Assembly: GCF_054482595.1 (NCBI RefSeq) | Contig: NZ_CM137008.1 | DNA: 64,000 nt | Strand: one strand, 5' to 3' | Shown: in pieces, positions 4,498-19,908 of the stretch | Numbering within the stretch: position 1 is the first letter of the stretch | How the letters are laid out: each line of letters starts with the position of its first letter | Translations under genes and position numbers: made by a program | Notes under the pieces: generated by a model | What the model saw: only the letters and a program-made list of their open reading frames with translations | Databases searched by the model: none | What the model was told of the DNA's origin: nothing

Positions 4498-5172
4498 TTA
4501 TTTTCCCCACAACCGGCGGGAAAAATCTTCGATCTTGCCGCTCAGTCGGCGCTTTTGCATCGTCCGCGTCCAGCTTTTCGATAACCCGGCGGCGGAGAGT
4601 AAACGGTGATACTGATCGTCATCAAACGGCATATGCCATGCGATGGCGGCAGCCTCCTGCACGGTCACATCGCTGACACGGGAAACCAACTCCAGCGGTG
4701 CGTCCGCAGACACTTTCCCTGGCGCTATCACGCTATACAACCATCCCACTTTACCCGTGTTTTGCATCAACTGCGCTATATCGCTGATATCAAAATGGTA
4801 ATTGAGTTTATAGCAAGGCGAGCGCGGCTGGCTGACCTGAATTAATGCCTCTCCCCAGCGGAAAATATCGCCCATATAAACATTACTTTCCGTCAGACCG
4901 TCGGTTGAGAGATTTTCACCAAACGCAGGCGCAACAAACAACTCCGCCTGTTCCGGAAATTCCCGCGCCCAGTAGAGATAGTGCTCACGAGGATAATGAC
5001 ACAGCGCTCTGTCTGGCCCGCCGTGAACCTTTTTCTCCGCCTGCTCGTCACCTTCCAGCCCCAGCTCCGTCAGCATCAACTCACCATCAACCTGGATTTT
5101 GGCAATTGCGCTGGGTTTGCCTTCGGGATAAGCCTGAATCTTGCCTGTGTATACATCAACCGGATATCGCAT
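4498..5172 (-). CDS. yiiM: MOSC-domain protein (6-N-hydroxylaminopurine resistance)
   Basis: ORF 4498..5202; internal Met (MRYPVDVYTGKIQ...) gives the 224-aa YiiM length. Confidence 0.85.
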   Translation of the reverse strand: MRYPVDVYTGKIQAYPEGKPSAIAKIQVDGELMLTELGLEGDEQAEKKVHGGPDRALCHYPREHYLYWAREFPEQAELFVAPAFGENLSTDGLTESNVYMGDIFRWGEALIQVSQPRSPCYKLNYHFDISDIAQLMQNTGKVGWLYSVIAPGKVSADAPLELVSRVSDVTVQEAAAIAWHMPFDDDQYHRLLSAAGLSKSWTRTMQKRRLSGKIEDFSRRLWGK

Positions 5173-5320
5173 CTGTTCCCTCTCCACGAGAAATTTCCCC
5201 ATTAGACCATATTTATTTTATGTCAGGCGTGCTGTTTTCGCGGTAAGTATCCAGGCAGGAACTCAATAGCAAACCGGACGAACGTTAGTTCATCCGGCGG
5301 TGGGGATTAAGGAAGCAGGT

Positions 5321-6304
5321 TTATTTCACCGTACCTAAAATTTCGATTTTCGCCGCTCTGGCTTTGACTTTACGTGACCAGATAGAGGTAAGAATTGGCA
5401 CCAGAATCGAAGTCACAATGACTGCCGTCGCTACCAGCGAAGTTGCTGCCGGAGCCATCGGTTTAAACGCAGGCACCATTTCTGCAATCAGCACAGGTGT
5501 CGCTACCGCGGCCCCTGCGGAACTGGAAGCGGCAATTCCGGCAGTGCCATCGCCACCGCCAATCAATTTATCGGCGATAATCAACGGAATACCGGTCACG
5601 ATAATTACTGCCACACCCAACAGGATCCCCAGCAAACCTGTCTGGGCAATTACAGTCAAATCAATGGTATTGCCCAGTGCGAAGGCAAAGAATGGAATCA
5701 GCGTCTGCACCGCTTTGCTGAAAAATTCTCGTAATTCAGGGTCAAGGTTCCCCAGGGCAAAGCCCACCAGGAACGGTAATACTGCGCCGACGAAAACATG
5801 CGGTTCAAACGAGGCAATCCCGGCAGTGCCCAGAATAATCATCGTCATGAGCGGCCCGGACTCCAACGACATCAACACAAATGCCCCAGCTTCTTCTTTT
5901 GTGCCGTACTGCTGCATGATGGAAGCGTAAAGTCCGCCGTTGGTCATATCCATCGCCGCCACCAGCGCCAGCGTTGAAAGTCCGGCAAAGAATCCAACTT
6001 CAACACCATGTTCCGGAATAATGCGCGAGGCAATTGCCGCAACCACCCACGCGACGGCAATTTTAGTTACCACCAGCGTACCGGATTTACGCAGTACCGT
6101 TCCCGTCGCGCTTAATTTTATTGACGCCCCCATGCAAAAAAACCACACCGCCAGAATGGGCACCGTACCGGTAATCATCCCGTTGGTGAATGATCCAAAA
6201 TATTTCCCCGCCCCCGGCGAGAAGGTGTGGCACAGTGCGCCAAGGAATAGCGGGACGAGCATCATCCCCCCCGGGATTTTCTCAATCGAGCGTTTTATCT
6301 GCAT
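5321..6304 (-). CDS. kdgT: 2-keto-3-deoxygluconate permease
   Basis: 327 aa from [20 protein letters not shown]...; polytopic membrane protein. Confidence 0.9.
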
Positions 6305-6426
6305 TTCCATCACCTGTCGGCATATTTTTAAGGGCTGATGCGTAATTCCTCAATGGAGCATCAGTGTTGATGGAAACGAAGATAGACATTCATTTAATCA
6401 ATAAAAGTGATCAAAACCACATCAAT

Positions 6427-6441
6427 TGAAACGCTGTTTTA
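6427..6441. promoter_or_regulatory. Candidate KdgR-type operator (near-palindrome TGAAACgctGTTTTA) upstream of kdgT
   Basis: Imperfect inverted repeat about 125 bp upstream of kdgT start in an AT-rich promoter region; assignment by analogy only. Confidence 0.3.
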
Positions 6442-6563
6442 TTTTTATCGGATCATTGTTTTTATTTTGAAATTGATCACAAAAAAACCACCGCCATTGG
6501 CGATGGTTCATTTTTTAAGCTGATATGCGGCGTAAACGCCTCATTGCAGCAGACGGCAAATGA

Positions 6564-7184
6564 TTATTTTTTCGCCGCGAAACGTGCCGCTGCTTCGTCC
6601 CAGTTCACCACGTTCCAGAACTCTTTGATGTAGTCCGGACGGCGGTTCTGGAATTTCAGGTAGTAAGCATGTTCCCACACATCCAGGCCCAGAATCGGGA
6701 AGCCGGAAGCGCCAGAAATAGCTTCACCCATCAGCGGGGAGTCCTGGTTAGCAGTAGAAACCACCGCCAGTTTATCGCCTTTCAGCACCAGCCATGCCCA
6801 GCCGGAACCAAAGCGGGAAGCTGCCGCTTTTTCAAATTCTGCTTTGAAGTTATCAACGGAGCCGAAGTCACGTTCGATAGCCGCTTTCAGGTCACCCTGC
6901 AGGGTGGTGCCTTTTTTCAGACCTTTCCAGAACAGGCTGTGGTTAGCGTGACCGCCAGCGTTGTTGCGCAGTACGGTTTTCTTGTCTGCTGGCAGCTGGT
7001 CCAGTTTGGTGATCAGCTCTTCAACCGGCAGGTTGGCAAATTCTGGCAGGCTTTCCAGCGCCGCGTTGGCGTTGTTTACGTAGGTCTGATGGTGTTTGGT
7101 GTGGTGGATTTCCATGGTCTGCTTATCGAAGTGCGGTTCCAGGGCATCGTAAGCATACGGCAGGGATGGCAGGGTATAGCTCAT
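6564..7184 (-). CDS. sodA: Manganese superoxide dismutase
   Basis: 206 aa, [36 protein letters not shown]...; Mn/Fe SOD metal ligands present. Confidence 0.95.
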
Positions 7185-7258
7185 ATTCATCTCCAGTATT
7201 GTCGGGCGGCCGATTGTTAATGCCGCGTAAGCAGTTGGTTCATTATAGTTAATTAAAT

Positions 7259-7277
7259 GATATTGAAAATGATTATC
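7259..7277. promoter_or_regulatory. Fur-box-like site in sodA promoter
   Basis: Minus-strand GATAATCATTTTCAATATC resembles Fur consensus GATAATGATAATCATTATC; sodA is a known Fur target. Confidence 0.5.
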
Positions 7278-7468
7278 AATGCCGTACTTTTCGTAAGGGT
7301 ATGGTTTTGCAGGAAAATGCCCGAGATGTGAAGCAAATCACCCACTTAATGCCGTGATTGCCAGTAAATCGACAACGGCGGCAACAGGCGAAAGGTTAAT
7401 CGACAGCACGATTTTTACACTCATCTCGTCGGAGATGTGAAGCGACGAAAAATGATGAGGATAAGAAG

Positions 7469-8503
7469 ATGAGTAACGCGATTACGATGGGGATATTTTG
7501 GCATTTGATCGGCGCGGCCAGTGCAGCCTGTTTTTACGCTCCGTTCAAAAAAGTAAAAAAATGGTCATGGGAAACCATGTGGTCAGTCGGTGGGATTGTT
7601 TCGTGGATTATTCTGCCGTGGGCCATCAGCGCCCTGTTACTACCGAATTTCTGGGCGTATTACAGCTCGTTTAGTCTCTCTACGCTGCTGCCTGTTTTTC
7701 TGTTCGGCGCTATGTGGGGGATCGGTAATATCAACTACGGCCTGACCATGCGTTATCTCGGCATGTCGATGGGAATTGGCATCGCCATTGGCATTACGTT
7801 GATTGTCGGTACGCTGATGACGCCAATTATCAACGGCAATTTCGATGTGCTGATTAACACCGAAGGCGGACGCATGACGTTGCTCGGCGTTCTGGTGGCG
7901 CTGATTGGCGTAGGGATTGTAACTCGAGCCGGGCAGTTGAAAGAGCGCAAGATGGGCATTAAAGCCGAAGAGTTCAATCTGAAAAAAGGGCTGGTGCTGG
8001 CGGTGATGTGCGGCATTTTCTCTGCCGGGATGTCCTTTGCGATGAACGCCGCAAAACCGATGCATGAAGCCGCTGCCGCACTTGGCGTCGATCCACTGTA
8101 TGTCGCTCTGCCAAGCTATGTTGTCATCATGGGCGGCGGCGCGATCATTAACCTCGGTTTCTGTTTTATTCGTCTGGCAAAAGTGAAGGATTTGTCGCTA
8201 AAAGCCGACTTCTCGCTGGCAAAACCGCTGATCATTCACAATGTGTTACTCTCGGCACTGGGCGGGTTGATGTGGTATCTGCAATTCTTTTTCTATGCCT
8301 GGGGCCACGCCCGCATTCCGGCGCAATATGACTACATCAGTTGGATGCTGCATATGAGCTTCTATGTATTGTGCGGCGGTATCGTCGGGCTGGTGCTGAA
8401 AGAGTGGAACAATGCAGGACGCCGTCCGGTAACGGTGTTGAGCCTCGGTTGTGTGGTGATTATTGTCGCCGCTAACATCGTCGGCATCGGCATGGCGAAT
8501 TAA
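7469..8503 (+). CDS. rhaT: L-rhamnose:H+ symporter
   Basis: 344 aa, [35 protein letters not shown]...; 10-TM DMT-type. Confidence 0.95.
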
Positions 8504-9348
8504 TCTTTCTGCGAATTGAGATGACGCCACTGGCTGGGCGTCATCCCGGTTTCCCGGGTAAACACCACCGAAAAATAGTTACTATCTTCAAAGCCACATT
8601 CGGTCGAAATATCACTGATTAACAGGCGGCTATGCTGGAGAAGATATTGCGCATGACACACTCTGACCTGCCGCAGATATTGATTGATGGTCATTCCAGT
8701 CTGCTGGCGAAATTGCTGACGCAAAACGCGCTCACTGCACGATGCCTCATCACAAAATTTATCCAGCGCAAAGGGACTTTTCAGGCTGGCCGCCAGCCGG
8801 GTAATCAGCTTATCCAGCAACGTTTCGCTGGATGTTGGCGGCAACGAATCACTGGTGTAACGATGGCGATTCAGCAACATCACCAACTGCCCGAACAGCA
8901 ACTCTGCCATTTCGTTAGCAAACGGCACATGCTGACTACTTTCATGCTCAAGCTGACCGATAACCTGCCGCGCCTGTGCCATCCCCATGCTACCTAAGCG
9001 CCAGTGTGGTTGCCCTGCGCTGGCGCTAAATCCCGGAATCGCCCCCTGCCAGTCAAGATTCAGCTTCAGCCGCTCCGGGCAATAAATAATATTCTGCAAA
9101 ACCAGATCGTTAACGGAAGCGTAGGAGTGTTTATCGTCAGCATGAATGTAAAAGAGATCGCCACGGGTAATGCGATAAGGGCGATCGTTGAGTACATGCA
9201 GACCATTACCGCGCCAGACAATCACCAGCTCACAAAAATCATGTGTATGTTCAGCAAAGACATCTTGCGGATAACGGTCAGCCACAGCGACTGCCTGCTG
9301 GTCGCTGGCAAAAAAATCATCTTTGAGAAGTTTTAACTGATGCGCCAC
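8500..9348 (-). CDS. rhaR: AraC-family activator of rhaSR (GTG start)
   Basis: ORF track starts at an upstream ATG (319 aa), but the product aligns to RhaR from (M)[12 protein letters not shown], initiated at GTG (plus-strand CAC 9346..9348), giving 282 aa. Confidence 0.85.
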
Positions 9349-9421
9349 CGTGGCTACCTCGGCCAGAGAACGAAGTTGATTATTCGCAATATGGCGTACA
9401 AATACGTTGAGAAGATTCGCG

Positions 9422-10258
9422 TTATTGCAGAAAACCATCCCGTCCCTGACGAATATCACGCGGTGACCAGTTAAACTCTCGGCGAAAAAGCGTCGAAAAG
9501 TGGTTACTGTCGCTGAATCCGCAGCGATAGGCGATGTCAGTAACGCTGGCCTCGCTGTGGCGTAGCAGATGTCGGGCTTTCATCAGTCGCAGGCGGTTCA
9601 GGTAACGCTGAGGCGTCAGTCCCGTTTGCTGCTTAAGCTGCCGATGTAGCGTACGCAGCGAAAGAGAAAATTGATCCGCCACGGCATCCCAATTCACCTC
9701 ATCGGCAAAATGGTCCTCCAGCCAGGCCAGAAGCAAGTTGAGACTTGATGCGCTGTTTTCCAGGTTCTCCTGCAAACTGCTTTTACGCAGCAAGAGCAAT
9801 AATTGCATAAACAAGATCTCGCGACTGGCGGTCGAGGGTAAATCATTTTCCCCTTCCTGCTGTTCCATCTGTGCAACCAGCTGTCGCACCTGCTGCAATA
9901 CGCTGTGGTTAACGCGCCAGTGAGACGGATACTGCCCATCCAGCTCTTGTGGCAGCAACTGATTCAGCCCGGCGAGAAACTGAAATCGATCCGGCGATCG
10001 ATACAGCACATTGGTCAGACACAGATTATCGGTATGTTCATACAGATGCCGATCATGATCGCGTACGAAACAGACCGTGCCACCGGTGATGGTATAGGGC
10101 TGCCCATTAAACACATGAATACCCGTGCCATGTTCGACAATCACAATTTCATGAAAATCATGATGATGTTCAGGAAAATCCGCCTGCGGGAGCCGGGGTT
10201 CTATCGCCACGGACGCGTTACCAGACGGAAAAAAATCCACACTATGTAATACGGTCAT
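9422..10258 (-). CDS. rhaS: AraC-family activator of rhaBAD and rhaT
   Basis: 278 aa from [22 protein letters not shown]...; C-terminal dual HTH; upstream ATG in track not used. Confidence 0.9.
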
Positions 10259-13276: not shown

Positions 13277-13600
13277 GCCGGATGCGGCGCGAGCGCCTTA
13301 TCCGGCCTACAGGTCGGCAACAGTTGTAGGCCTGATAAGACGCGACAGCGTCGCATCAGGCATTGATTGCCGGATACGGCACGAGTGCCTTATCCGGCCT
13401 ACAGGTCGGCAATAGTTGTAGGCCTGATAAGACGCGACAGCGTCGCATCAGGCATTGATTGCCGGATGCGGCACGAGCGCCTTATCCGGCCTACAGGTCG
13501 GCAATAGTTGTAGGCCTGATAAGACGCGACAGCGTCGCATCAGGCATTGATTGCCGGATGCGGCACGAGCGCCTTATCCGGCCTACGGGTCGTGCATCCG
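13277..13600. repeat. Tandem BIME array: about 3.5 copies of a 92-bp unit, each holding a convergent REP pair
   Basis: Unit starts (GCCGGAT(G/A)CGGC...) at 13277, 13369, 13461 and 13553; near-identical copies, few substitutions. Confidence 0.9.
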
Positions 13601-14463: not shown

Positions 14464-14778
14464 ATGATCCGCAAAGCCTTTGTCATGCAGGTTAACCCCG
14501 ACGCTCACGAAGAGTATCAGCGTCGGCATAACCCCATCTGGCCGGAACTGGAAGCAGTGTTGAAATCTCACGGTGCGCATAACTACGCCATTTACCTCGA
14601 CAAAGCGCGTAATCTGCTGTTTGCCACGGTAGAGATTGAATCTGAAGAGCGCTGGAATGCGGTTGCCAGTACTGATGTTTGCCAACGTTGGTGGAAATAT
14701 ATGACCGACGTCATGCCCGCGAACCCGGATAACAGCCCGGTGAGTAGCGAACTGCAAGAAGTGTTTTACCTGCCGTAA
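14464..14778 (+). CDS. rhaM: L-rhamnose mutarotase
   Basis: 104 aa, [30 protein letters not shown]... Confidence 0.92.
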
Positions 14779-14787
14779 TTGCCTAAT

Positions 14788-14818
14788 GTGCCGGAGACGC
14801 CTCCGGCACAATATTTTT
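14788..14818 (+). terminator. Rho-independent terminator after rhaM
   Basis: Perfect 9-bp stem GTGCCGGAG-acgc-CTCCGGCAC followed by a T-rich tract. Confidence 0.75.
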
Positions 14819-15090
14819 AATTTCGATTTGAAAAATAAACATATTACACCTTCAGTTAATATATCCCGGTAACTTATATTTCCCCGATGCATTGTGAGTA
14901 AATCACAAAAATAATGAATAACTCATTAATGATTCATGTGGTTTATTTAAATAACCATTATGTGCATTACTCCGCAAATCTGACCTTTCACTCTGTCTCA
15001 AATTGTCATTGTTTACCGACATATCGCCTCTCATCACTTAATCGCTCCACCATTACAATTGATTAAAATATATTTCATGGAGTCCGATTA

Positions 15091-15537
15091 ATGGCAGCTC
15101 TTACTGCAAGCTGTATTGACCTGAATATTCAGGGCAATGGCGCTTATTCCATTCTGAAGCAGTTGGCGACAATGGCGTTACAAAACGGTTTTATCACCGA
15201 CTCACACCAATTCCTGCAAACCCTGCTGCTGCGCGAAAAAATGCACTCTACTGGATTTGGTTCCGGCATCGCCGTGCCGCACGGTAAAAGCGCCTGCGTT
15301 AAACAACCGTTCGTGTTATTCGCCCGCAAAGCGCAGGCTATTGACTGGAAAGCCAGCGATGGCGAAGACGTCAATTGCTGGATCTGCCTCGGCGTGCCGC
15401 AAAGCGGCGAAGAGGATCAGGTCAAAATCATCGGTACACTGTGTCGCAAAATTATCCACCAGGATTTTATTCACCAACTGCGACGAGGCGACGCCGACCA
15501 GGTGTTTGCCTTGTTAAATCAAACCCTCAGCTCATAA
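15091..15537 (+). CDS. frvA: PTS fructose-like EIIA component
   Basis: 148 aa; PTS EIIA-2 fold with conserved His motif (GIAVPHG). Confidence 0.9.
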   Translation: MAALTASCIDLNIQGNGAYSILKQLATMALQNGFITDSHQFLQTLLLREKMHSTGFGSGIAVPHGKSACVKQPFVLFARKAQAIDWKASDGEDVNCWICLGVPQSGEEDQVKIIGTLCRKIIHQDFIHQLRRGDADQVFALLNQTLSS

Positions 15538-15547
15538 GGAAGTGGCG

Positions 15548-16999
15548 ATGGAGTCATCCTTACGTATTGTCGCGATCACCAACTGCCCCGCCGGGATCGC
15601 TCACACCTACATGGTGGCGGAAGCCCTGGAACAGAAAGCCCGTTCTCTCGGCCATACCATAAAAGTGGAAACTCAAGGGTCCAGTGGCGTTGAAAACCGC
15701 TTATCCAGCGAAGAGATTGCCGCTGCCGATTACGTCATTCTCGCTACCGGGCGTGGCCTGAGCGGCGATGACCGGGCGCGGTTTGCCGGGAAGAAGGTTT
15801 ATGAGATTGCCATCTCCCAGGCGTTGAAAAATATCGACCAGATTTTCAGTGAATTACCAACAAACTCGCAGCTTTTTGCCGCAGATAGCGGCGTGAAGCT
15901 CGGCAAACAGGAAGTACAAAGCGGCAGCGTAATGAGCCACCTGATGGCGGGCGTCTCTGCGGCGCTGCCGTTTGTTATCGGTGGCGGTATCCTGGTGGCG
16001 CTTGCCAACATGCTGGTGCAGTTCGGCCTGCCGTATACCGATATGTCGAAAGGCGCGCCGTCGTTTACCTGGGTGGTTGAATCCATCGGTTATCTCGGCT
16101 TCACCTTTATGATCCCCATCATGGGCGCTTATATTGCCTCGTCGATTGCCGATAAACCCGCTTTCGCTCCGGCGTTTCTGGTTTGCTATCTGGCGAATGA
16201 CAAAGCCCTGCTCGGCACCCAGTCAGGTGCGGGATTCCTCGGCGCGGTGGTGCTGGGGCTGGCGATTGGCTATTTCGTCTTCTGGTTCCGTAAAGTGCGC
16301 CTTGGCAAAGCATTACAACCGCTGCTCGGTTCAATGCTGATCCCGTTCGTTACTCTGCTGGTTTTCGGCGTGCTCACTTACTACGTTATCGGACCGGTAA
16401 TGTCCGACCTCATGGGCGGGTTGCTGCACTTCCTGAACACCATTCCTCCATCAATGAAATTTGCGGCAGCGTTTCTGGTCGGTGCGATGCTGGCGTTCGA
16501 TATGGGCGGCCCCATCAATAAAACCGCCTGGTTCTTCTGCTTCTCACTGCTGGAAAAACACATTTATGACTGGTACGCCATCGTCGGCGTTGTCGCGCTG
16601 ATGCCGCCCGTCGCGGCGGGTCTTGCGACGTTCATTGCGCCCAAACTGTTTACCCGACAGGAAAAAGAGGCTGCCAGTAGTGCCATTGTGGTCGGTGCCA
16701 CAGTCGCAACCGAACCTGCTATTCCTTACGCTCTGGCAGCTCCGTTACCGATGATTACCGCCAATACGCTGGCGGGCGGTATTACCGGCGTGCTGGTGAT
16801 CGCTTTCGGAATCAAACGTCTGGCACCTGGTTTGGGTATCTTTGACCCGCTGATCGGCCTGATGTCGCCGGTAGGTTCGTTTTATCTGGTGCTGGCGATT
16901 GGCCTCGCGCTAAACATTTCATTCATTATCGTCCTGAAAGGATTGTGGTTACGCCGCAAAGCGAAAGCCGCGCAACAGGAGCTTGTCCATGAACATTGA
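15548..16999 (+). CDS. frvB: PTS fructose-like EIIBC component
   Basis: N-terminal EIIB Cys motif (ITNCPAGIAHTYM) plus polytopic EIIC domain; start chosen at second Met (483 aa), ORF opens at 15542. Confidence 0.88.
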   Translation: MESSLRIVAITNCPAGIAHTYMVAEALEQKARSLGHTIKVETQGSSGVENRLSSEEIAAADYVILATGRGLSGDDRARFAGKKVYEIAISQALKNIDQIFSELPTNSQLFAADSGVKLGKQEVQSGSVMSHLMAGVSAALPFVIGGGILVALANMLVQFGLPYTDMSKGAPSFTWVVESIGYLGFTFMIPIMGAYIASSIADKPAFAPAFLVCYLANDKALLGTQSGAGFLGAVVLGLAIGYFVFWFRKVRLGKALQPLLGSMLIPFVTLLVFGVLTYYVIGPVMSDLMGGLLHFLNTIPPSMKFAAAFLVGAMLAFDMGGPINKTAWFFCFSLLEKHIYDWYAIVGVVALMPPVAAGLATFIAPKLFTRQEKEAASSAIVVGATVATEPAIPYALAAPLPMITANTLAGGITGVLVIAFGIKRLAPGLGIFDPLIGLMSPVGSFYLVLAIGLALNISFIIVLKGLWLRRKAKAAQQELVHEH

Positions 17000-18059
17000 G
17001 TTACTGCAACAGTTGTGCGAAGCCAGCGCCGTCAGCGGCGATGAACAGGAAGTTCGCGACATCCTGATAAACACGCTGGAACCTTGCGTTAATGAAATCA
17101 CCTTTGATGGTCTGGGCAGCTTTGTTGCCCGTAAGGGGAATAAAGGTCCAAAAGTTGCCGTTGTCGGGCATATGGATGAAGTCGGCTTTATGGTCACCCA
17201 CATCGACGAGAGCGGTTTTCTGCGTTTTACCACCATTGGCGGCTGGTGGAATCAGTCGATGCTCAACCACCGGGTAACCATACGCACACACAAGGGAGTG
17301 AAAATCCCTGGTGTGATTGGTTCCGTCGCGCCTCATGCGTTAACGGAAAAGCAAAAGCAACAACCGCTGTCATTTGATGAGATGTTCATTGATATTGGCG
17401 CGAACAGTCGCGATGAGGTGGAAAAACGCGGTGTGGCGATGGGCGATTTTATTAGCCCGGAAGCCAATTTTGCCTGCTGGGGCGAAGATAAAGTGGTCGG
17501 CAAGGCGCTGGATAACCGCATCGGCTGCGCAATGATGGCTGAACTATTGCAGACGGTGAATAATCCCGAAATTACGCTGTATGGCGTCGGCAGCGTGGAA
17601 GAAGAAGTTGGGCTACGCGGGGCACAAACCTCGGCGGAACACATTAAACCGGATGTGGTGATTGTGCTGGATACCGCTGTCGCAGGTGATGTTCCGGGCA
17701 TTGATAACATTAAATACCCGCTGAAACTGGGCCAGGGGCCGGGGCTGATGCTGTTTGACAAGCGCTACTTCCCCAACCAGAAACTGGTGGCGGCGTTAAA
17801 AAGCTGTGCCGCACATAACGATTTACCGCTGCAATTTTCCACCATGAAAACCGGTGCGACGGATGGCGGGCGCTACAACGTGATGGGCGGCGGGCGTCCG
17901 GTTGTTGCGCTGTGCCTGCCAACCCGCTATCTGCACGCTAACAGCGGCATGATTTCAAAAGCCGATTACGATGCTCTGCTCACGTTGATACGGGATTTTC
18001 TGACCACCTTAACCGCGGAGAAAGTCAACGCGTTTAGCCAGTTCCGTCAGGTGGATTAA
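16989..18059 (+). CDS. frvX: M42-family aminopeptidase/cellulase-like protein
   Basis: 356 aa from MNIELLQQLCEASAVSGDEQ...; overlaps frvB 3' end by 11 nt. Confidence 0.88.
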   Translation: MNIELLQQLCEASAVSGDEQEVRDILINTLEPCVNEITFDGLGSFVARKGNKGPKVAVVGHMDEVGFMVTHIDESGFLRFTTIGGWWNQSMLNHRVTIRTHKGVKIPGVIGSVAPHALTEKQKQQPLSFDEMFIDIGANSRDEVEKRGVAMGDFISPEANFACWGEDKVVGKALDNRIGCAMMAELLQTVNNPEITLYGVGSVEEEVGLRGAQTSAEHIKPDVVIVLDTAVAGDVPGIDNIKYPLKLGQGPGLMLFDKRYFPNQKLVAALKSCAAHNDLPLQFSTMKTGATDGGRYNVMGGGRPVVALCLPTRYLHANSGMISKADYDALLTLIRDFLTTLTAEKVNAFSQFRQVD

Positions 18060-19807
18060 TGCTAAACGAACGCCAGTTAAAGATTGTCGATCTGCTGGAG
18101 CAACAGCCGCGCACGCCTGGTGAGCTGGCGCAACAGACTGGCGTTTCAGGCAGGACCATCCTGCGTGATATTGACTATCTCAACTTTACCCTTAACGGCA
18201 AAGCCCGCATTTCCGCCAGTGGTAGTGCGGGCTATCAGCTGGAAATCTTCGAGCGCCGCAGCTTTTTTCAGTTGCTGCAAAAGCACGATAACGACGATCG
18301 GCTGCTGGCACTGTTATTACTGAATACCTTTACTCCCCGTGCGCAACTCGCCTCGGCGCTTAATTTGCCAGAAACGTGGGTCGCAGAGCGTCTGCCCCGG
18401 TTAAAACAGCGTTATGAACGCGCTTGTTGCCTGGCCAGCCGCCCCGGTTTGGGCCATTTCATTGATGAGACAGAAGAGAAGCGCGTTATCTTGCTGGCGA
18501 ACTTGCTGCGCAAAGATCCGTTTTTAATTCCGCTGGCGGGCGTAACACGAGACAACCTTCAGCATTTATCCACGGCCTGCGACAACCAACACCGCTGGCC
18601 GCTCATGCAGGGTGATTATCTCTCCAGCCTGATTCTGGCGATTTACGCCCTGCGTAATCAACTGACCGATGAGTGGCCGCAATATCCCGGTGACGAGATA
18701 AAACAAATCGTTGAACATAGCGGTCTGTTTCTTGGTGATAACGCTGTAAGAACCCTGACAGGTTTGATAGAGAAACAGCATCAGCAAGCGCAGATAATTT
18801 CTGCCGATAATGTGCAGCGGTTGCTGCAAAGGGTGCCGGGCATCGCGTCATTGAATATTATTGATACGCAGCTGGTTGAGAACATTACCGGGCATTTATT
18901 ACGTTGCCTTGCCGCACCGGTGTGGATTGCTGAGCACCGCCAAAGCAGCATGAATAACCTGAAAGCCGCCTGGCCTGCGGCCTTTGATATGAGTCTGCAC
19001 TTTATTACGCTACTGCGTGAACAGCTCGATATTCCCCTTTTCGACAGCGATCTGATCGGTTTGTATTTTGCCTGTGCGCTGGAGCGGCATCAAAACGAAC
19101 GCCAGCCGATCATTTTGCTCTCGGACCAGAACGCAATTGCCACTATTAATCAGCTCGCCATTGAGCGCGATGTTTTAAATTGTCGGGTAATTATTGCCCG
19201 TAGCTTAAGCGAACTTGTTGCCATTCGCGAAGAGATTGAGCCGTTATTGATCATTAACAATAGCCATTATTTACTGGAAGACGCGGTAAATAATTACATC
19301 ACCGTAAAAAATATCATTACGGCTGCCGGTATCGAACAAATAAAACATTTTCTGGCGACGGCATTTATTCGCCAGCAACCGGAGCGTTTTTTCTCTGCCC
19401 CCGGAAGTTTTCATTATTCGAATGTACGCGGTGAAAGCTGGCAACATATTACCCGGCAAATTTGTGCGCAATTAGTGGCACAACACCATATTACCGCCGA
19501 TGAAGCACAACGCATCATCGCCCGCGAAGGCGAAGGTGAAAACCTGATTGTTAATCGCCTCGCCATCCCACATTGCTGGAGCGAACAGGAGCGACGTTTT
19601 CGTGGATTTTTTATTACCCTCGCCCAATCAGTTGAGGTGAATAAAGAAGTCATTAACCATGTTTTGATCGCCTGCGCCGCCGCCGATGCGCGTCATGAGC
19701 TAAAAATATTCAGCTATCTGGCAAGCGTATTGTGTCAGCATCCGGCGGAGACTATTGTCGGACTAACGGGGTATGAAGGGTTTATGGCGTTACTTCGCCA
19801 GGGGTGA
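18059..19807 (+). CDS. frvR: frv operon regulator
   Basis: 582 aa; N-terminal HTH (GELAQQTGVSGRTILRDI), large C-terminal domain; start overlaps frvX stop. Confidence 0.88.
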   Translation: MLNERQLKIVDLLEQQPRTPGELAQQTGVSGRTILRDIDYLNFTLNGKARISASGSAGYQLEIFERRSFFQLLQKHDNDDRLLALLLLNTFTPRAQLASALNLPETWVAERLPRLKQRYERACCLASRPGLGHFIDETEEKRVILLANLLRKDPFLIPLAGVTRDNLQHLSTACDNQHRWPLMQGDYLSSLILAIYALRNQLTDEWPQYPGDEIKQIVEHSGLFLGDNAVRTLTGLIEKQHQQAQIISADNVQRLLQRVPGIASLNIIDTQLVENITGHLLRCLAAPVWIAEHRQSSMNNLKAAWPAAFDMSLHFITLLREQLDIPLFDSDLIGLYFACALERHQNERQPIILLSDQNAIATINQLAIERDVLNCRVIIARSLSELVAIREEIEPLLIINNSHYLLEDAVNNYITVKNIITAAGIEQIKHFLATAFIRQQPERFFSAPGSFHYSNVRGESWQHITRQICAQLVAQHHITADEAQRIIAREGEGENLIVNRLAIPHCWSEQERRFRGFFITLAQSVEVNKEVINHVLIACAAADARHELKIFSYLASVLCQHPAETIVGLTGYEGFMALLRQG

Positions 19808-19812
19808 ATGAT

Positions 19813-19882
19813 GTCGGATGCACCGCTAACACGGCTTAACGACGTTTAGGTCGGATAAGGCGTTTACGCCGCATCCGACCTT
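19813..19882. repeat. REP element(s)
   Basis: GGTCGGATAAGGCGTTTACGCCGCATCCGACC palindromic unit between convergent frvR and yiiG. Confidence 0.75.
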
Positions 19883-19908
19883 GTATTTCTCAGCAAAAAC
19901 AAAAACGT

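What the first reader, a model, noticed from the sequence alone, without database searches (positions are those of the whole stretch)
15091..19807. frv operon couples PTS components to an M42 peptidase-like protein and a large atypical regulator
frvABXR encodes EIIA, EIIBC, an M42-family aminopeptidase/cellulase-like protein and a 582-aa HTH regulator with a long uncharacterised C-terminal domain. The presence of a peptidase-family enzyme in a sugar PTS operon is unusual and the substrate is, to my knowledge, unknown. The upstream region 14820..15090 is strongly AT-rich.
Basis: partly seen in the sequence, partly recalled or inferred. Interest (0 to 1): 0.35.

Follow-up and report, generated by a model that had tools for sequence, protein, structure and literature searches.

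The report
E. coli frvABXR sugar-transport operon
This is the long-annotated but still unexplained E. coli frvABXR operon: a fructose-type sugar importer always found with a metal-dependent peptidase-family enzyme and a transport-controlled regulator. It is real, intact and conserved as far as Listeria, but it is not a new discovery.

Summary
Window 15091-19807 is E. coli frvA-frvB-frvX-frvR, 100% identical to sequenced strains.

The interpretation needs two corrections.
- FrvR's C-terminal part is not uncharacterised. FrvR is a trimmed MtlR/LicR-class regulator: two winged HTH domains, two degenerate PRDs, an EIIB-like domain without its Cys, and an EIIA-like domain with its His.
- A peptidase gene in a PTS operon is not a one-off. 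All three E. coli K-12 M42 genes (frvX, ypdE, sgcX) lie in PTS operons.

What the analysis adds:
- The gene order EIIA-EIIBC-M42-FrvR is kept in about 41 of 45 FrvR-family loci, from Enterobacteriaceae, Hafnia and Rahnella to environmental Listeria. Listeria adds a PatB-type C-S lyase.
- All four genes are under purifying selection (dN/dS 0-0.15), and every catalytic and phospho-acceptor residue is intact.
- The palindrome TGTCA-N8/9-TGACA lies upstream of the EIIA gene in 54 of 55 loci. It is the likely FrvR operator.
- The AT-rich upstream stretch is the remnant of a divergent intergenic region. A RafY-type porin gene has been deleted from it.

The substrate remains unknown. The verdict is a known operon of modest interest.

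The parts
14787..14810 (+). Intrinsic terminator hairpin of the upstream rhaM gene (10-bp stem followed by a T-run)
   Evidence: Terminator scan. rhaM ends at 14778.
14780..14902 (.). 123-bp segment that stands in place of a 1,723-bp stretch carrying a divergent RafY-family porin gene in other E. coli lineages (a deletion scar)
   Evidence: blastn against the O157:H7 locus L001: window 14400-14779 matches L001 1201-1580 and window 14903-15200 matches L001 3304-3601 at 82% identity, with nothing matching in between. The porin is Porin_8/RafY, 4.5e-152.
14961..14978 (+). CRP-like site TGTG-N8-C(A/G)CAAA. In this allele the distal half is CGCA instead of CACA.
   Evidence: Phylogenetic footprint across 7 enterobacterial genera: invariant GTG and C.CAAA columns (alignment A2). 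The assignment to CRP is an inference from the consensus TGTGA-N6-TCACA.
15004..15024 (+). Palindrome TGTCA-N8-(C)GACATAT, the predicted FrvR operator. It has one mismatch to TGTCA-N8-TGACA in this allele.
   Evidence: Invariant columns in A2. It is the only match to the extended pattern in the 64-kb window at up to 1 mismatch. It is present ~87-124 bp upstream of the EIIA gene in 54 of 55 loci, including Listeria, Rahnella and Hafnia.
15054..15059 (+). Predicted -10 hexamer TACAAT. The conserved 'CTCAT' at 15030-15034 sits where a poor -35 would lie.
   Evidence: T, A, A, A, T are invariant across genera in A2. The generic sigma-70 scan finds no full promoter here, which fits an activator-dependent promoter. 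The transcription start site has not been determined.
15079..15082 (+). Shine-Dalgarno sequence GGAG, 8 nt before the frvA ATG
   Evidence: Invariant GGA columns in A2; sequence read.
15091..15537 (+). frvA: PTS EIIA (Fru/Mtl type), phospho-acceptor His64 in GIAVPHGK
   Evidence: equivalog 289.8 vs 151 bits. His64 is invariant, Listeria included.
15548..16999 (+). frvB: PTS EIIB-EIIC (Fru family), phospho-acceptor Cys13 in ITNCPAGIAHTY
   Evidence: Cys13 is invariant. 78% identical to the Listeria orthologue. dN/dS 0-0.08.
16989..18059 (+). frvX: M42 (MH-clan) dinuclear metallohydrolase. It overlaps frvB by 11 nt.
   Evidence: H61, D63, D175, E205, E206, D228 and H316 align to PhTET2 H68, D70, D182, E212, E213, D235 and H323 and are invariant in 10 orthologues. 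dN/dS 0.04-0.14.
18059..19807 (+). frvR: Mga/MtlR-class regulator. wHTH 1-63, wHTH 94-135, helical PRD-like region 139-343, EIIB-like 349-440, EIIA-like 450-582. It overlaps the frvX stop codon by 1 nt.
19849..19889 (+). REP-type palindromic element between frvR and the convergent yiiG gene
   Evidence: Sub-threshold naRNA4 (REP-derived) match, 36.9 bits against a gathering score of 59.5; sequence.

Best explanation
frvABXR is a self-contained, autoregulated PTS module for one specific, still unidentified substrate. The most likely substrate is a fructose-like sugar carrying an amide-linked amino-acyl or peptidyl group.

Proposed mechanism:
- Phosphoryl groups pass from HPr to FrvA His64, then to FrvB Cys13, then to the incoming substrate.
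- FrvX, a catalytically intact dinuclear M42 metallohydrolase, cleaves an amide bond in the phosphorylated product. This releases a sugar phosphate and an amino acid or peptide.
- In Listeria, a PatB C-S lyase encoded in the operon processes the amino-acid part further.
- FrvR is an MtlR/LicR-class activator. It binds the palindrome TGTCA-N8-TGACA just upstream of a weak -35 and switches the operon, including its own gene, on or off according to the phosphorylation state of its EIIA-like His505 and PRD2 His279.
- A CRP-like site adds catabolite control in enterobacteria.

Shown here: gene identities, intact active sites, purifying selection, conserved gene order across phyla, the FrvR fold and residue map, and the conserved DNA sites.

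Inferred: the chemistry of the substrate, FrvX acting on the PTS product, FrvR being an activator that binds the palindrome, and which PTS protein phosphorylates which FrvR residue.
For: Identity and domains.

Active sites: all M42 metal ligands and the catalytic Glu are invariant. FrvA His64 and FrvB Cys13 are invariant.

Selection: dN/dS is 0-0.15 for all four genes, within E. coli and across genera.

Coupling: EIIA-EIIBC-M42-FrvR keeps the same order in Escherichia, Citrobacter, Klebsiella, Kluyvera, Salmonella, Trabulsiella, Enterobacter, Lelliottia, Buttiauxella, Hafnia, Rahnella and about 11 Listeria species, while the flanking genes differ. M42 is the only enzyme present in every lineage with an undamaged locus.

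Substrate specificity: FrvB is 78% and FrvX 60% identical between E. coli and Listeria, against 32% for FrvR. This argues for one conserved substrate. The Listeria operons add a PatB-family C-S lyase, a second enzyme that acts on amino acids.

FrvR class: AlphaFold model with pLDDT 85. Foldseek matches to AtxA, MgaSpn and Mga-family proteins at about 1e-10, plus EIIA-Ntr/EIIA-Mtl. Remote homologues carry PRD, PTS_IIB and EIIA_2 domains. H279 and P504-H505 are invariant down to 20% identity.

Operator: the palindrome is present in 54 of 55 loci, exactly one copy per frvA promoter, against a background of about 3.8 matches per 64 kb of shuffled sequence. No sigma-70 consensus promoter is found there, as expected for an activator-dependent promoter.
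Against: No substrate, phenotype or enzyme assay for Frv was found.

The characterised M42 enzymes discussed in the paper read here act as aminopeptidases, and that paper cites YpdE's activity as characterised (PMC3511314). That YpdE acts on ordinary peptides is from my own knowledge. No M42 enzyme is known to cleave a sugar conjugate.

The operon is dispensable. It is missing from about 23% of complete E. coli genomes and interrupted by IS1 in some.

In this allele both the CRP-like site and the palindrome carry one substitution in a half-site, which may mean weak expression.

FrvR lacks the second PRD2 His (Tyr336 instead) and the EIIB Cys (Ser355 instead). These are the key switches in B. 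subtilis MtlR (my own knowledge), so its control logic cannot simply be copied from that model.
Confidence: 0.5

Rival explanations
1. FrvX is a general-purpose aminopeptidase that is only co-expressed with the transporter, for example to scavenge nitrogen alongside carbon. It has no chemical link to the PTS substrate, which would be a simple ketose or hexitol.
For: The characterised M42 enzymes discussed in PMC3511314 are aminopeptidases, and that paper cites YpdE's activity as characterised. That YpdE has broad peptide specificity is from my own knowledge. FrvX keeps the canonical aminopeptidase active site. FrvB is about equally close to the fructose (FruA) and mannosylglycerate (MngA) permease models.
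Against: Loose co-expression would not predict strict retention of the M42 gene between EIIBC and the regulator across phyla and across different chromosomal sites, with translational coupling through overlapping stop and start codons. The module encodes no other enzyme to process a phosphorylated sugar. Listeria adds a second enzyme that acts on amino acids.
Confidence: 0.25
2. In E. coli the operon is a cryptic relic. It is intact in sequence but effectively silent and without a present function in this lineage.
For: It is absent from about 23% of complete genomes, including CFT073, and carries IS1 insertions in some. The neighbouring porin has been deleted in this lineage. There is a one-base degeneration in both the CRP-like site and the palindrome. 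No phenotype was found in the literature.
Against: dN/dS is 0-0.15 even between E. coli alleles, whose dS is 0.11-0.48. That cannot be sustained without selection on the proteins. All active-site residues are kept.
Confidence: 0.15
3. FrvX acts mainly as a regulatory partner that modulates FrvR by protein-protein contact, in the way MalY restrains MalT. Its enzymatic role would be secondary.
For: frvX and frvR are translationally coupled (1-nt overlap) and always adjacent, or separated only by the PatB gene in Listeria. PatB/MalY-type lyases are known to moonlight as regulators in E. coli (my own knowledge of MalY-MalT).
Against: Complete conservation of seven catalytic and metal-binding residues across about 40% sequence divergence points to catalysis as the selected function. 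No interaction data exist.
Confidence: 0.07

Closest known systems
Bacillus subtilis MtlR / LicR / ManR (PRD-containing PTS-controlled transcriptional activators)
   Same: The domain order is the same: HTH, Mga-like HTH, PRD, PRD, EIIB(Gat)-like, EIIA(Mtl)-like. The EIIA-like His (AIPHC, H505) and the first His of PRD2 (H279) are conserved. The gene lies in the operon it presumably controls. The palindromic site sits just upstream of a weak -35.
   Different: FrvR is about 60-100 residues shorter and Pfam does not detect its PRDs. The second PRD2 His is an invariant Tyr336, and the EIIB-like Cys is replaced by Ser355. The family is small (174 cluster representatives out of 1.84 billion) and mostly enterobacterial, where this class is uncommon (the last point is from my own knowledge).
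Mga / AtxA / MgaSpn virulence regulators (PDB 4r6i, 5way, 3sqn)
   Same: These are the best structural matches over residues ~1-480: two HTH domains, two PRD-like domains and an EIIB-like domain without the phospho-Cys.
   Different: The solved chains are about 100 residues shorter than FrvR, consistent with their lacking a C-terminal EIIA-like domain (my own knowledge), which FrvR has. They control virulence regulons rather than a PTS operon (my own knowledge).
E. coli fryBC-ypdFE-fryA and sgcXBCQAER operons
   Same: Both are orphan PTS operons that also embed an M42 gene (ypdE, sgcX). YpdE's aminopeptidase activity is cited as characterised in PMC3511314.
   Different: The paralogues are distant (FrvX is 35% identical to YpdE and 30% to SgcX). 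The PTS families, the accessory enzymes (an M24 peptidase; an epimerase and SgcQ) and the regulators (SgcR is listed under DeoR in PMC4797297; the fry operon encodes no FrvR-type regulator) all differ.
TET / M42 aminopeptidases (PhTET2 1y0r, B. subtilis YsdC 1vhe, TmPep1050 4p6y)
   Same: Same family, with identical metal ligands and catalytic Glu. FrvX is 42% identical to YsdC and 36% to PhTET2.
   Different: These enzymes are discussed as general peptide-degrading complexes (PMC3511314). As far as I know they are not embedded in sugar-transport operons. FrvX's substrate and oligomeric state are untested.
FruBKA fructose PTS and the MngA mannosylglycerate PTS
   Same: FrvA and FrvB belong to the same Fru family. 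FrvB scores 271 bits against the FruA model and 255.5 bits against the MngA model.
   Different: frv has no 1-phosphofructokinase, no FPr and no glycoside hydrolase. The only enzyme in the module is the M42 hydrolase.
E. coli malXY (a PTS permease with the MalY C-S lyase)
   Same: A PTS EIIBC gene is paired with a PatB/MalY-type PLP enzyme, as in the Listeria form of the frv module (malXY itself is from my own knowledge).
   Different: malXY has no M42 gene and no FrvR-type regulator, and its permease belongs to the Glc family.

Membership tests
PTS EIIA, Fru/Mtl type (PF00359) | EIIA_2 domain with the phosphorylatable His in a G-x-A-x-P-H motif | tested here: met
   FrvA matches PF00359 at 3.2e-34 and the equivalog at 289.8 vs 151 bits. 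His64 in GIAVPHGK is invariant.
PTS EIIBC, Fru family | IIB domain with the active-site Cys, plus an EIIC membrane domain | tested here: met
   PF02302 and PF02378 both match, and the FrvB equivalog scores 1034 vs 806 bits. Cys13 in NCPAGIAHTY is invariant.
PTS EIIBC, Fru family | PEP-dependent transport and phosphorylation of a defined sugar | not testable with these tools
   No substrate is known. The review PMC10305011 lists frvA and frvB only as putative, fructose-like.
Peptidase M42 (MH clan, TET aminopeptidases) | M42 domain with five metal ligands (H, D, E, D, H), the catalytic Glu and the conserved Asp of the HxD motif | tested here: met
   PF05343 matches at 7.6e-102. H61, D63, D175, E205, E206, D228 and H316 align to PhTET2 H68, D70, D182, E212, E213, D235 and H323 and are invariant in 10 orthologues.
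Peptidase M42 (MH clan, TET aminopeptidases) | Aminopeptidase activity and a dodecameric tetrahedral assembly | not testable with these tools
   This needs purified protein. Only monomer-level sequence homology to solved TET structures was obtained.
MtlR/LicR-class PRD-containing activators | N-terminal HTH followed by an Mga-like HTH | tested here: met
   HTH_11 matches at 2.7e-10. The model shows two winged-helix units at 1-63 and 94-135. The fold matches AtxA and Mga.
MtlR/LicR-class PRD-containing activators | Two PRDs, each with conserved phosphorylatable His residues | tested here: inconclusive
   Pfam finds no PRD in FrvR itself. There are weak PRD hits in the 29-40% identical relatives P0123 and P0135 and strong ones in more distant relatives. 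The helical region 139-343 superposes on the AtxA/Mga PRDs. Only the first His of PRD2 (H279) is kept; the second is Tyr336, and no conserved His was seen in PRD1.
MtlR/LicR-class PRD-containing activators | EIIB(Gat)-like domain with a phosphorylatable Cys | tested here: not met
   An alpha/beta domain is present at 349-440, but the Cys position is Ser355 (LLSDQNA against I-C-x-x-G-x-G-T) throughout the FrvR family.
MtlR/LicR-class PRD-containing activators | C-terminal EIIA(Mtl)-like domain with a phosphorylatable His | tested here: met
   PF00359 matches at 7.8e-12 over 455-558. Structural matches to EIIA-Ntr and EIIA-Mtl have target-normalised TM-scores of about 0.7. P504-H505 is invariant down to 20% identity.
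AraC family (as FrvR is listed in PMC4797297, Table 1) | C-terminal AraC-type double HTH (HTH_18 / HTH_AraC) | tested here: not met
   There is no AraC-type hit in Pfam or NCBIfam, and the fold is Mga/AtxA plus EIIA. The listing was read.
Plain fructose PTS (fruBKA type) | A 1-phosphofructokinase and an FPr-type phosphocarrier in the operon | tested here: not met
   The module has only EIIA, EIIBC, M42 and the regulator.
Endoglucanase / cellulase (CelM-type annotation of M42 proteins) | Glycoside-hydrolase activity | not testable with these tools
   PMC3511314 reports that M42 proteins annotated as cellulases are aminopeptidases. No glycoside-hydrolase domain is detected in FrvX.

The most novel reading that the evidence does not exclude
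The Frv module is a dedicated uptake and breakdown system for a sugar-amino acid or sugar-peptide conjugate, for example an aminoacyl-aminosugar or a cysteine-linked sugar from plant or microbial material. In it an M42 'aminopeptidase' cleaves the phosphorylated PTS product. That would give the M42 family a new physiological role and explain why all three E. coli M42 genes sit in orphan PTS operons. FrvR would define a distinct subfamily of PRD regulators run by only two phospho-sites (PRD2 His279 and EIIA His505) acting at a TGTCA-N8/9-TGACA operator.
Probability: 0.3. Interest if true: 0.6.

Novelty: already known. Interest (0 to 1): 0.3.

Why it matters
E. coli still carries several orphan PTS systems, and all three of its M42 peptidase-family genes are embedded in them. 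Nobody has explained why. This analysis shows the frv version is not an accident of E. coli gene order. It is a tightly conserved, selected, horizontally mobile four-gene unit found from Listeria to E. coli, with a very conserved permease and a predicted operator. That makes the question tractable, because the report supplies specific targets: residues to mutate (FrvX E205, FrvR H279 and H505), a DNA site to test (15004-15024), and better host strains that carry the complete locus. Finding the substrate would fill a gap in E. coli's metabolic map and could reveal a new class of nutrient, a sugar-amino acid conjugate, taken up through the PTS. The finding as submitted, however, restates existing annotation.

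Tried and rejected
- Plain fructose PTS with a dead FrvX: rejected. There is no fruK or FPr, FrvX's active site is intact, and frvX is under purifying selection.
- Decaying pseudogene cluster: rejected for this allele. All ORFs are intact and dN/dS is at most 0.15. Real decay is seen in Salmonella arizonae L057, and two Listeria loci (L049, L051) also look damaged.
- FrvR as an AraC-family protein, as listed in PMC4797297: rejected.
- RafY-type porin as an obligatory part of the system: not supported. It lies upstream of frvA in 13 enterobacterial loci and occurs in 47% of E. coli genomes, but it is lost independently of frv. K-12 and this window keep frv only, while CFT073 keeps the porin only. 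It has no palindrome copy, and Enterobacter and Lelliottia carry a raf-like cluster nearby that could explain its origin.
- Divergent operon (PfkA-type kinase, gat-type PTS, class II aldolase) as part of the FrvR regulon: unproven. It is present only in some Citrobacter, Klebsiella, Superficieibacter, Buttiauxella and unnamed enterobacterial loci, and it has no operator copy. The one recurrent match lies ~690 bp inside the kinase coding sequence.
- Riboswitch or sRNA in the AT-rich leader: none found. Rfam gives only REP-type naRNA4 matches outside the operon.
- Generic sigma-70 promoter scan: it found no promoter upstream of frvA. The -10 box was found only by phylogenetic footprinting.
- Genome scan with the 24-sequence alignment A3: failed because no conserved stretch was available. 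It was repeated with the 9-sequence alignment A4.
- PDB sequence search with FrvR: gave nothing useful. Structure prediction plus fold search was needed.


Full report
**1. Observation**

ORF listing finds four co-directional genes at 15091-19807 on the + strand. The segment is 100% identical to several E. coli chromosomes that annotate it as frvA, frvB, frvX and frvR, flanked by rhaM and yiiG. It is 96.8% identical to K-12.

- FrvA is an EIIA_2 protein.
- FrvB is IIB plus EIIC of the fructose family (equivalog 1034 vs 806 bits).
- FrvX is Peptidase_M42 (7.6e-102).
- FrvR has an N-terminal HTH_11 domain.

The annotated starts of frvB (ATG 15548) and frvX (ATG 16989) lie two codons inside the mechanical ORFs.

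The genes are tightly packed: a 10-nt gap between frvA and frvB, an 11-nt overlap between frvB and frvX, and a 1-nt overlap between frvX and frvR. This packing suggests translational coupling.

The upstream stretch 14820-15090 has 31.7% GC against a window mean of 50.9%. That puts it in the lowest 0.4% of 271-bp windows, but it is one of six such troughs in the window.

**2. The AT-rich leader**

In O157:H7 and many other E. coli strains, a divergently transcribed 464-aa 'carbohydrate porin' lies between rhaM and frvA. It belongs to the RafY glycoporin family (Porin_8, 4.5e-152).

In this window, as in K-12, 1,723 bp carrying that gene are replaced by 123 bp (14780-14902). The last ~190 bp before frvA are homologous to the porin-bearing form but only 82% identical.

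CFT073 shows the opposite outcome: the porin is kept, while frvABXR and part of yiiG are lost. Across 5,426 complete E. coli genomes, frv is present at ≥80% coverage in 4,184 and the porin in 2,557.

Phylogenetic footprinting of the leader across seven enterobacterial genera (alignment A2) shows four conserved islands in otherwise free-drifting sequence:
- a CRP-like TGTG-N8-CACAAA site (14961-14978; here the distal half is CGCA);
- a palindrome TGTCA-N8-TGACATAT (15004-15024; here CGACA);
- a 'CTCAT' where a poor -35 would lie;
- an invariant TA(C/A)AAT -10 box (15054-15059), followed by GGAG (15079-15082).

The generic promoter scan sees no sigma-70 consensus promoter here. That fits an activator-dependent promoter.

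**3. FrvX**

FrvX has close relatives with solved structures: B. subtilis YsdC (1vhe, 1.7e-87) and PhTET2 (1y0r, 1.5e-66).

The PhTET2 metal ligands and catalytic residues H68, D70, D182, E212, E213, D235 and H323 (their roles are from my own knowledge of the TET literature) align to FrvX H61, D63, D175, E205, E206, D228 and H316. All seven are invariant in ten orthologues. dN/dS for frvX is 0.04-0.14. FrvX is therefore very unlikely to be inactive.

The 'cellulase' label attached to M42 proteins is regarded as erroneous in PMC3511314.

**4. FrvR**

Its C-terminal part is not a blank.
- Pfam detects EIIA_2 at residues 455-558.
- An exhaustive HMMER search of 1.84 billion cluster representatives finds only 174 relatives. 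The distant ones, 610-680 aa long, are classical HTH_11-Mga-PRD-PRD-PTS_IIB-EIIA_2 regulators.
- An AlphaFold model built on 30 orthologues (pLDDT 85) matches AtxA, MgaSpn and an Enterococcus Mga-family protein over about 480 residues (E about 1e-10). Its last ~150 residues match EIIA-Ntr and EIIA-Mtl.

Aligning FrvR-family members with classical regulators (invariants) gives this phospho-site map:
- The first His of PRD2 is kept (H279, with R282).
- The second PRD2 His is an invariant Tyr336.
- The EIIB-like Cys is replaced by Ser355.
- The EIIA-like His is kept (AIPHC, H505).

FrvR is thus a reduced, divergent member of the MtlR/LicR class. A genome-wide TF catalogue lists it under AraC (PMC4797297), which the data here contradict.

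**5. Is the PTS-peptidase coupling real?**

Neighbourhoods of FrvR orthologues in Citrobacter, Salmonella houtenae, Klebsiella, Trabulsiella, Enterobacter, Lelliottia and an unnamed lineage all show frvA-frvB-frvX-frvR. Hafnia has the module at a different chromosomal site. A Listeria-type genome has EIIA-EIIBC-M42-aminotransferase-FrvR.

A scan of one genome per species returned 43 loci. They cover many enterobacterial genera, Rahnella, and ten environmental Listeria species, with L015 adding an eleventh Listeria-type locus. A tblastn census of 45 loci shows the same gene order in about 41. The exceptions look degraded or fragmented.

The Listeria extra gene is a PatB-family C-S lyase (364.5 vs 340 bits). 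Between E. coli and Listeria, FrvB is 78% identical, FrvX 60%, FrvA 38% and FrvR 32%. Such a conserved permease implies one specific substrate and horizontal spread of the module.

All four genes are under purifying selection (dN/dS 0-0.15).

In K-12, the other two M42 genes also lie in PTS operons: ypdE in fryBC-ypdFE-fryA and sgcX in sgcXBCQAER. They are only 35% and 30% identical to FrvX. The pairing is therefore recurrent and visible in existing annotation, though still unexplained.

**6. Operator**

The palindrome TGTCA-N8/9-TGACA lies 87-124 bp upstream of the EIIA start codon in 54 of 55 loci. It is exact in all ten Listeria loci examined, in Rahnella and in the two Buttiauxella loci examined, and has one mismatch in Hafnia. 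The surrounding promoter DNA in these lineages is unrelated to that of E. coli.

The background is about 3.8 matches per 64 kb of shuffled sequence. Other matches in the loci occur at or below that rate, and none precedes the porin or the kinase/aldolase operon.

Co-retention of the site with the regulator across phyla is the best available evidence that this is the FrvR operator. Because frvR is the last gene of the operon, the circuit would be autoregulatory. Binding itself has not been shown.

**7. Mechanism (shown and inferred)**

Shown: intact phospho-acceptors FrvA His64 and FrvB Cys13, an intact FrvX active site, the FrvR fold and residue map, and the conserved DNA sites.

Inferred from what is known of PTS operons and MtlR/LicR-type regulators:
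- HPr phosphorylates FrvA, which phosphorylates FrvB, which phosphorylates the incoming substrate.
- FrvX processes the phosphorylated product, because it is the only enzyme always present in undamaged loci.
- FrvR activates from a site near -53 when PTS phosphoryl flux signals that substrate is present.
- CRP adds catabolite control in enterobacteria.

The presence of two amino-acid or peptide enzymes (M42 everywhere, PatB in Listeria) and no sugar-phosphate enzyme suggests a sugar-amino acid or sugar-peptide conjugate as substrate. An aminopeptidase would naturally cleave an L-aminoacyl group amide-linked to an amino sugar. The sequential action of an MH-clan peptidase and PatB on Cys-Gly S-conjugates in Staphylococcus hominis (PMC11742315) is an analogy only.

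The rivals are a merely co-expressed general aminopeptidase, a cryptic relic in E. coli, and a regulatory role for FrvX.

**8. Comparison and novelty**

The operon and its odd composition have been in the E. coli annotation for decades. From memory, the name dates from the early genome-analysis papers on PTS genes. The paper library yielded no functional study.

The finding as submitted is therefore already known.

What appears not to be documented in the papers searched:
- the domain and phospho-site map of FrvR;
- the cross-phylum conservation of the four-gene unit, including the PatB-bearing Listeria form;
- the predicted operator;
- the porin-deletion origin of the AT-rich leader.

These are incremental, but they make an old open question experimentally approachable.

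**9. Verdict**

Interest is modest (0.3). The most novel reading not excluded is a PTS for sugar-amino acid conjugates with an M42 hydrolase acting on the phosphorylated product. Its probability is about 0.3 and its interest about 0.6 if true.

Noticed in passing
window 13329-13583 (rhaA-rhaD intergenic region): There are three tandem REP-type elements 92 bp apart (13329-13399, 13421-13491, 13513-13583), each matching Rfam naRNA4 above the gathering score (about 73 vs 59.5 bits). This looks like a BIME-like array.
   Followed up: no
window 14780-14902, compared with L001 1581-3303: A RafY-family glycoporin gene is present between rhaM and frvA in about 47% of E. coli genomes but deleted in this lineage and in K-12. 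CFT073 keeps the porin and has lost frvABXR and the start of yiiG. The locus therefore exists in three alternative states within the species.
   Followed up: yes
window 15091-19807, compared with L001 and L003: Synonymous divergence between E. coli frv alleles is high (dS 0.11-0.48, highest for frvR against strain DETEC-S566). About 1,550 genomes are only 90-95% identical over this region. This suggests old allelic lineages or recombination from outside the species.
   Followed up: partly
L004 704-5555, L006 548-5396, L007 587-5554; also L021, L028, L035, L040: In some Citrobacter, Klebsiella, Superficieibacter, Buttiauxella and unnamed enterobacterial loci, a divergent seven-gene operon abuts frvA. 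It encodes a PfkA-family kinase, IIB, a gat/ascorbate-type IIC, a class II ketose-bisphosphate aldolase, an 89-aa protein, an EIIA and a ~185-aa protein. It has no regulator gene of its own and no copy of the frv palindrome. Remnants are present in Salmonella houtenae (L005).
   Followed up: partly
L053 (Rahnella perminowiae) 5008-9653: Rahnella's frv module is closer to the Listeria version than to the E. coli one (EIIBC 72% and M42 63% identical to Listeria). Like Listeria, it has the N9 form of the palindrome, but it lacks the PatB gene. This points to horizontal transfer between Firmicutes and Enterobacterales.
   Followed up: partly
FrvR (window 18059-19807); literature: The TF catalogue in PMC4797297 (Table 1) lists FrvR as a characterised AraC-family factor. 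The domain and fold data here show an Mga/PRD/EIIA-type protein, and PMC6055005 lists it as a hypothetical TF.
   Followed up: yes
L009 and L010 978-4201: Enterobacter and Lelliottia carry a raf-like cluster (LacI regulator, GH36 alpha-galactosidase, LacY-type permease) about 2 kb upstream of frvA, beyond azlCD. The RafY-type porin next to frv in other genera may be a remnant of such a cluster rather than a part of the frv system.
   Followed up: no
window 19813-19889: A REP-like palindrome lies between the convergent genes frvR and yiiG (sub-threshold naRNA4 match, 36.9 bits). No canonical intrinsic terminator was found immediately after frvR.
   Followed up: no
E. coli genomes H16 and H26: Some E. 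coli strains carry an IS1 insertion that splits frvA. This shows the operon is inactivated sporadically.
   Followed up: no
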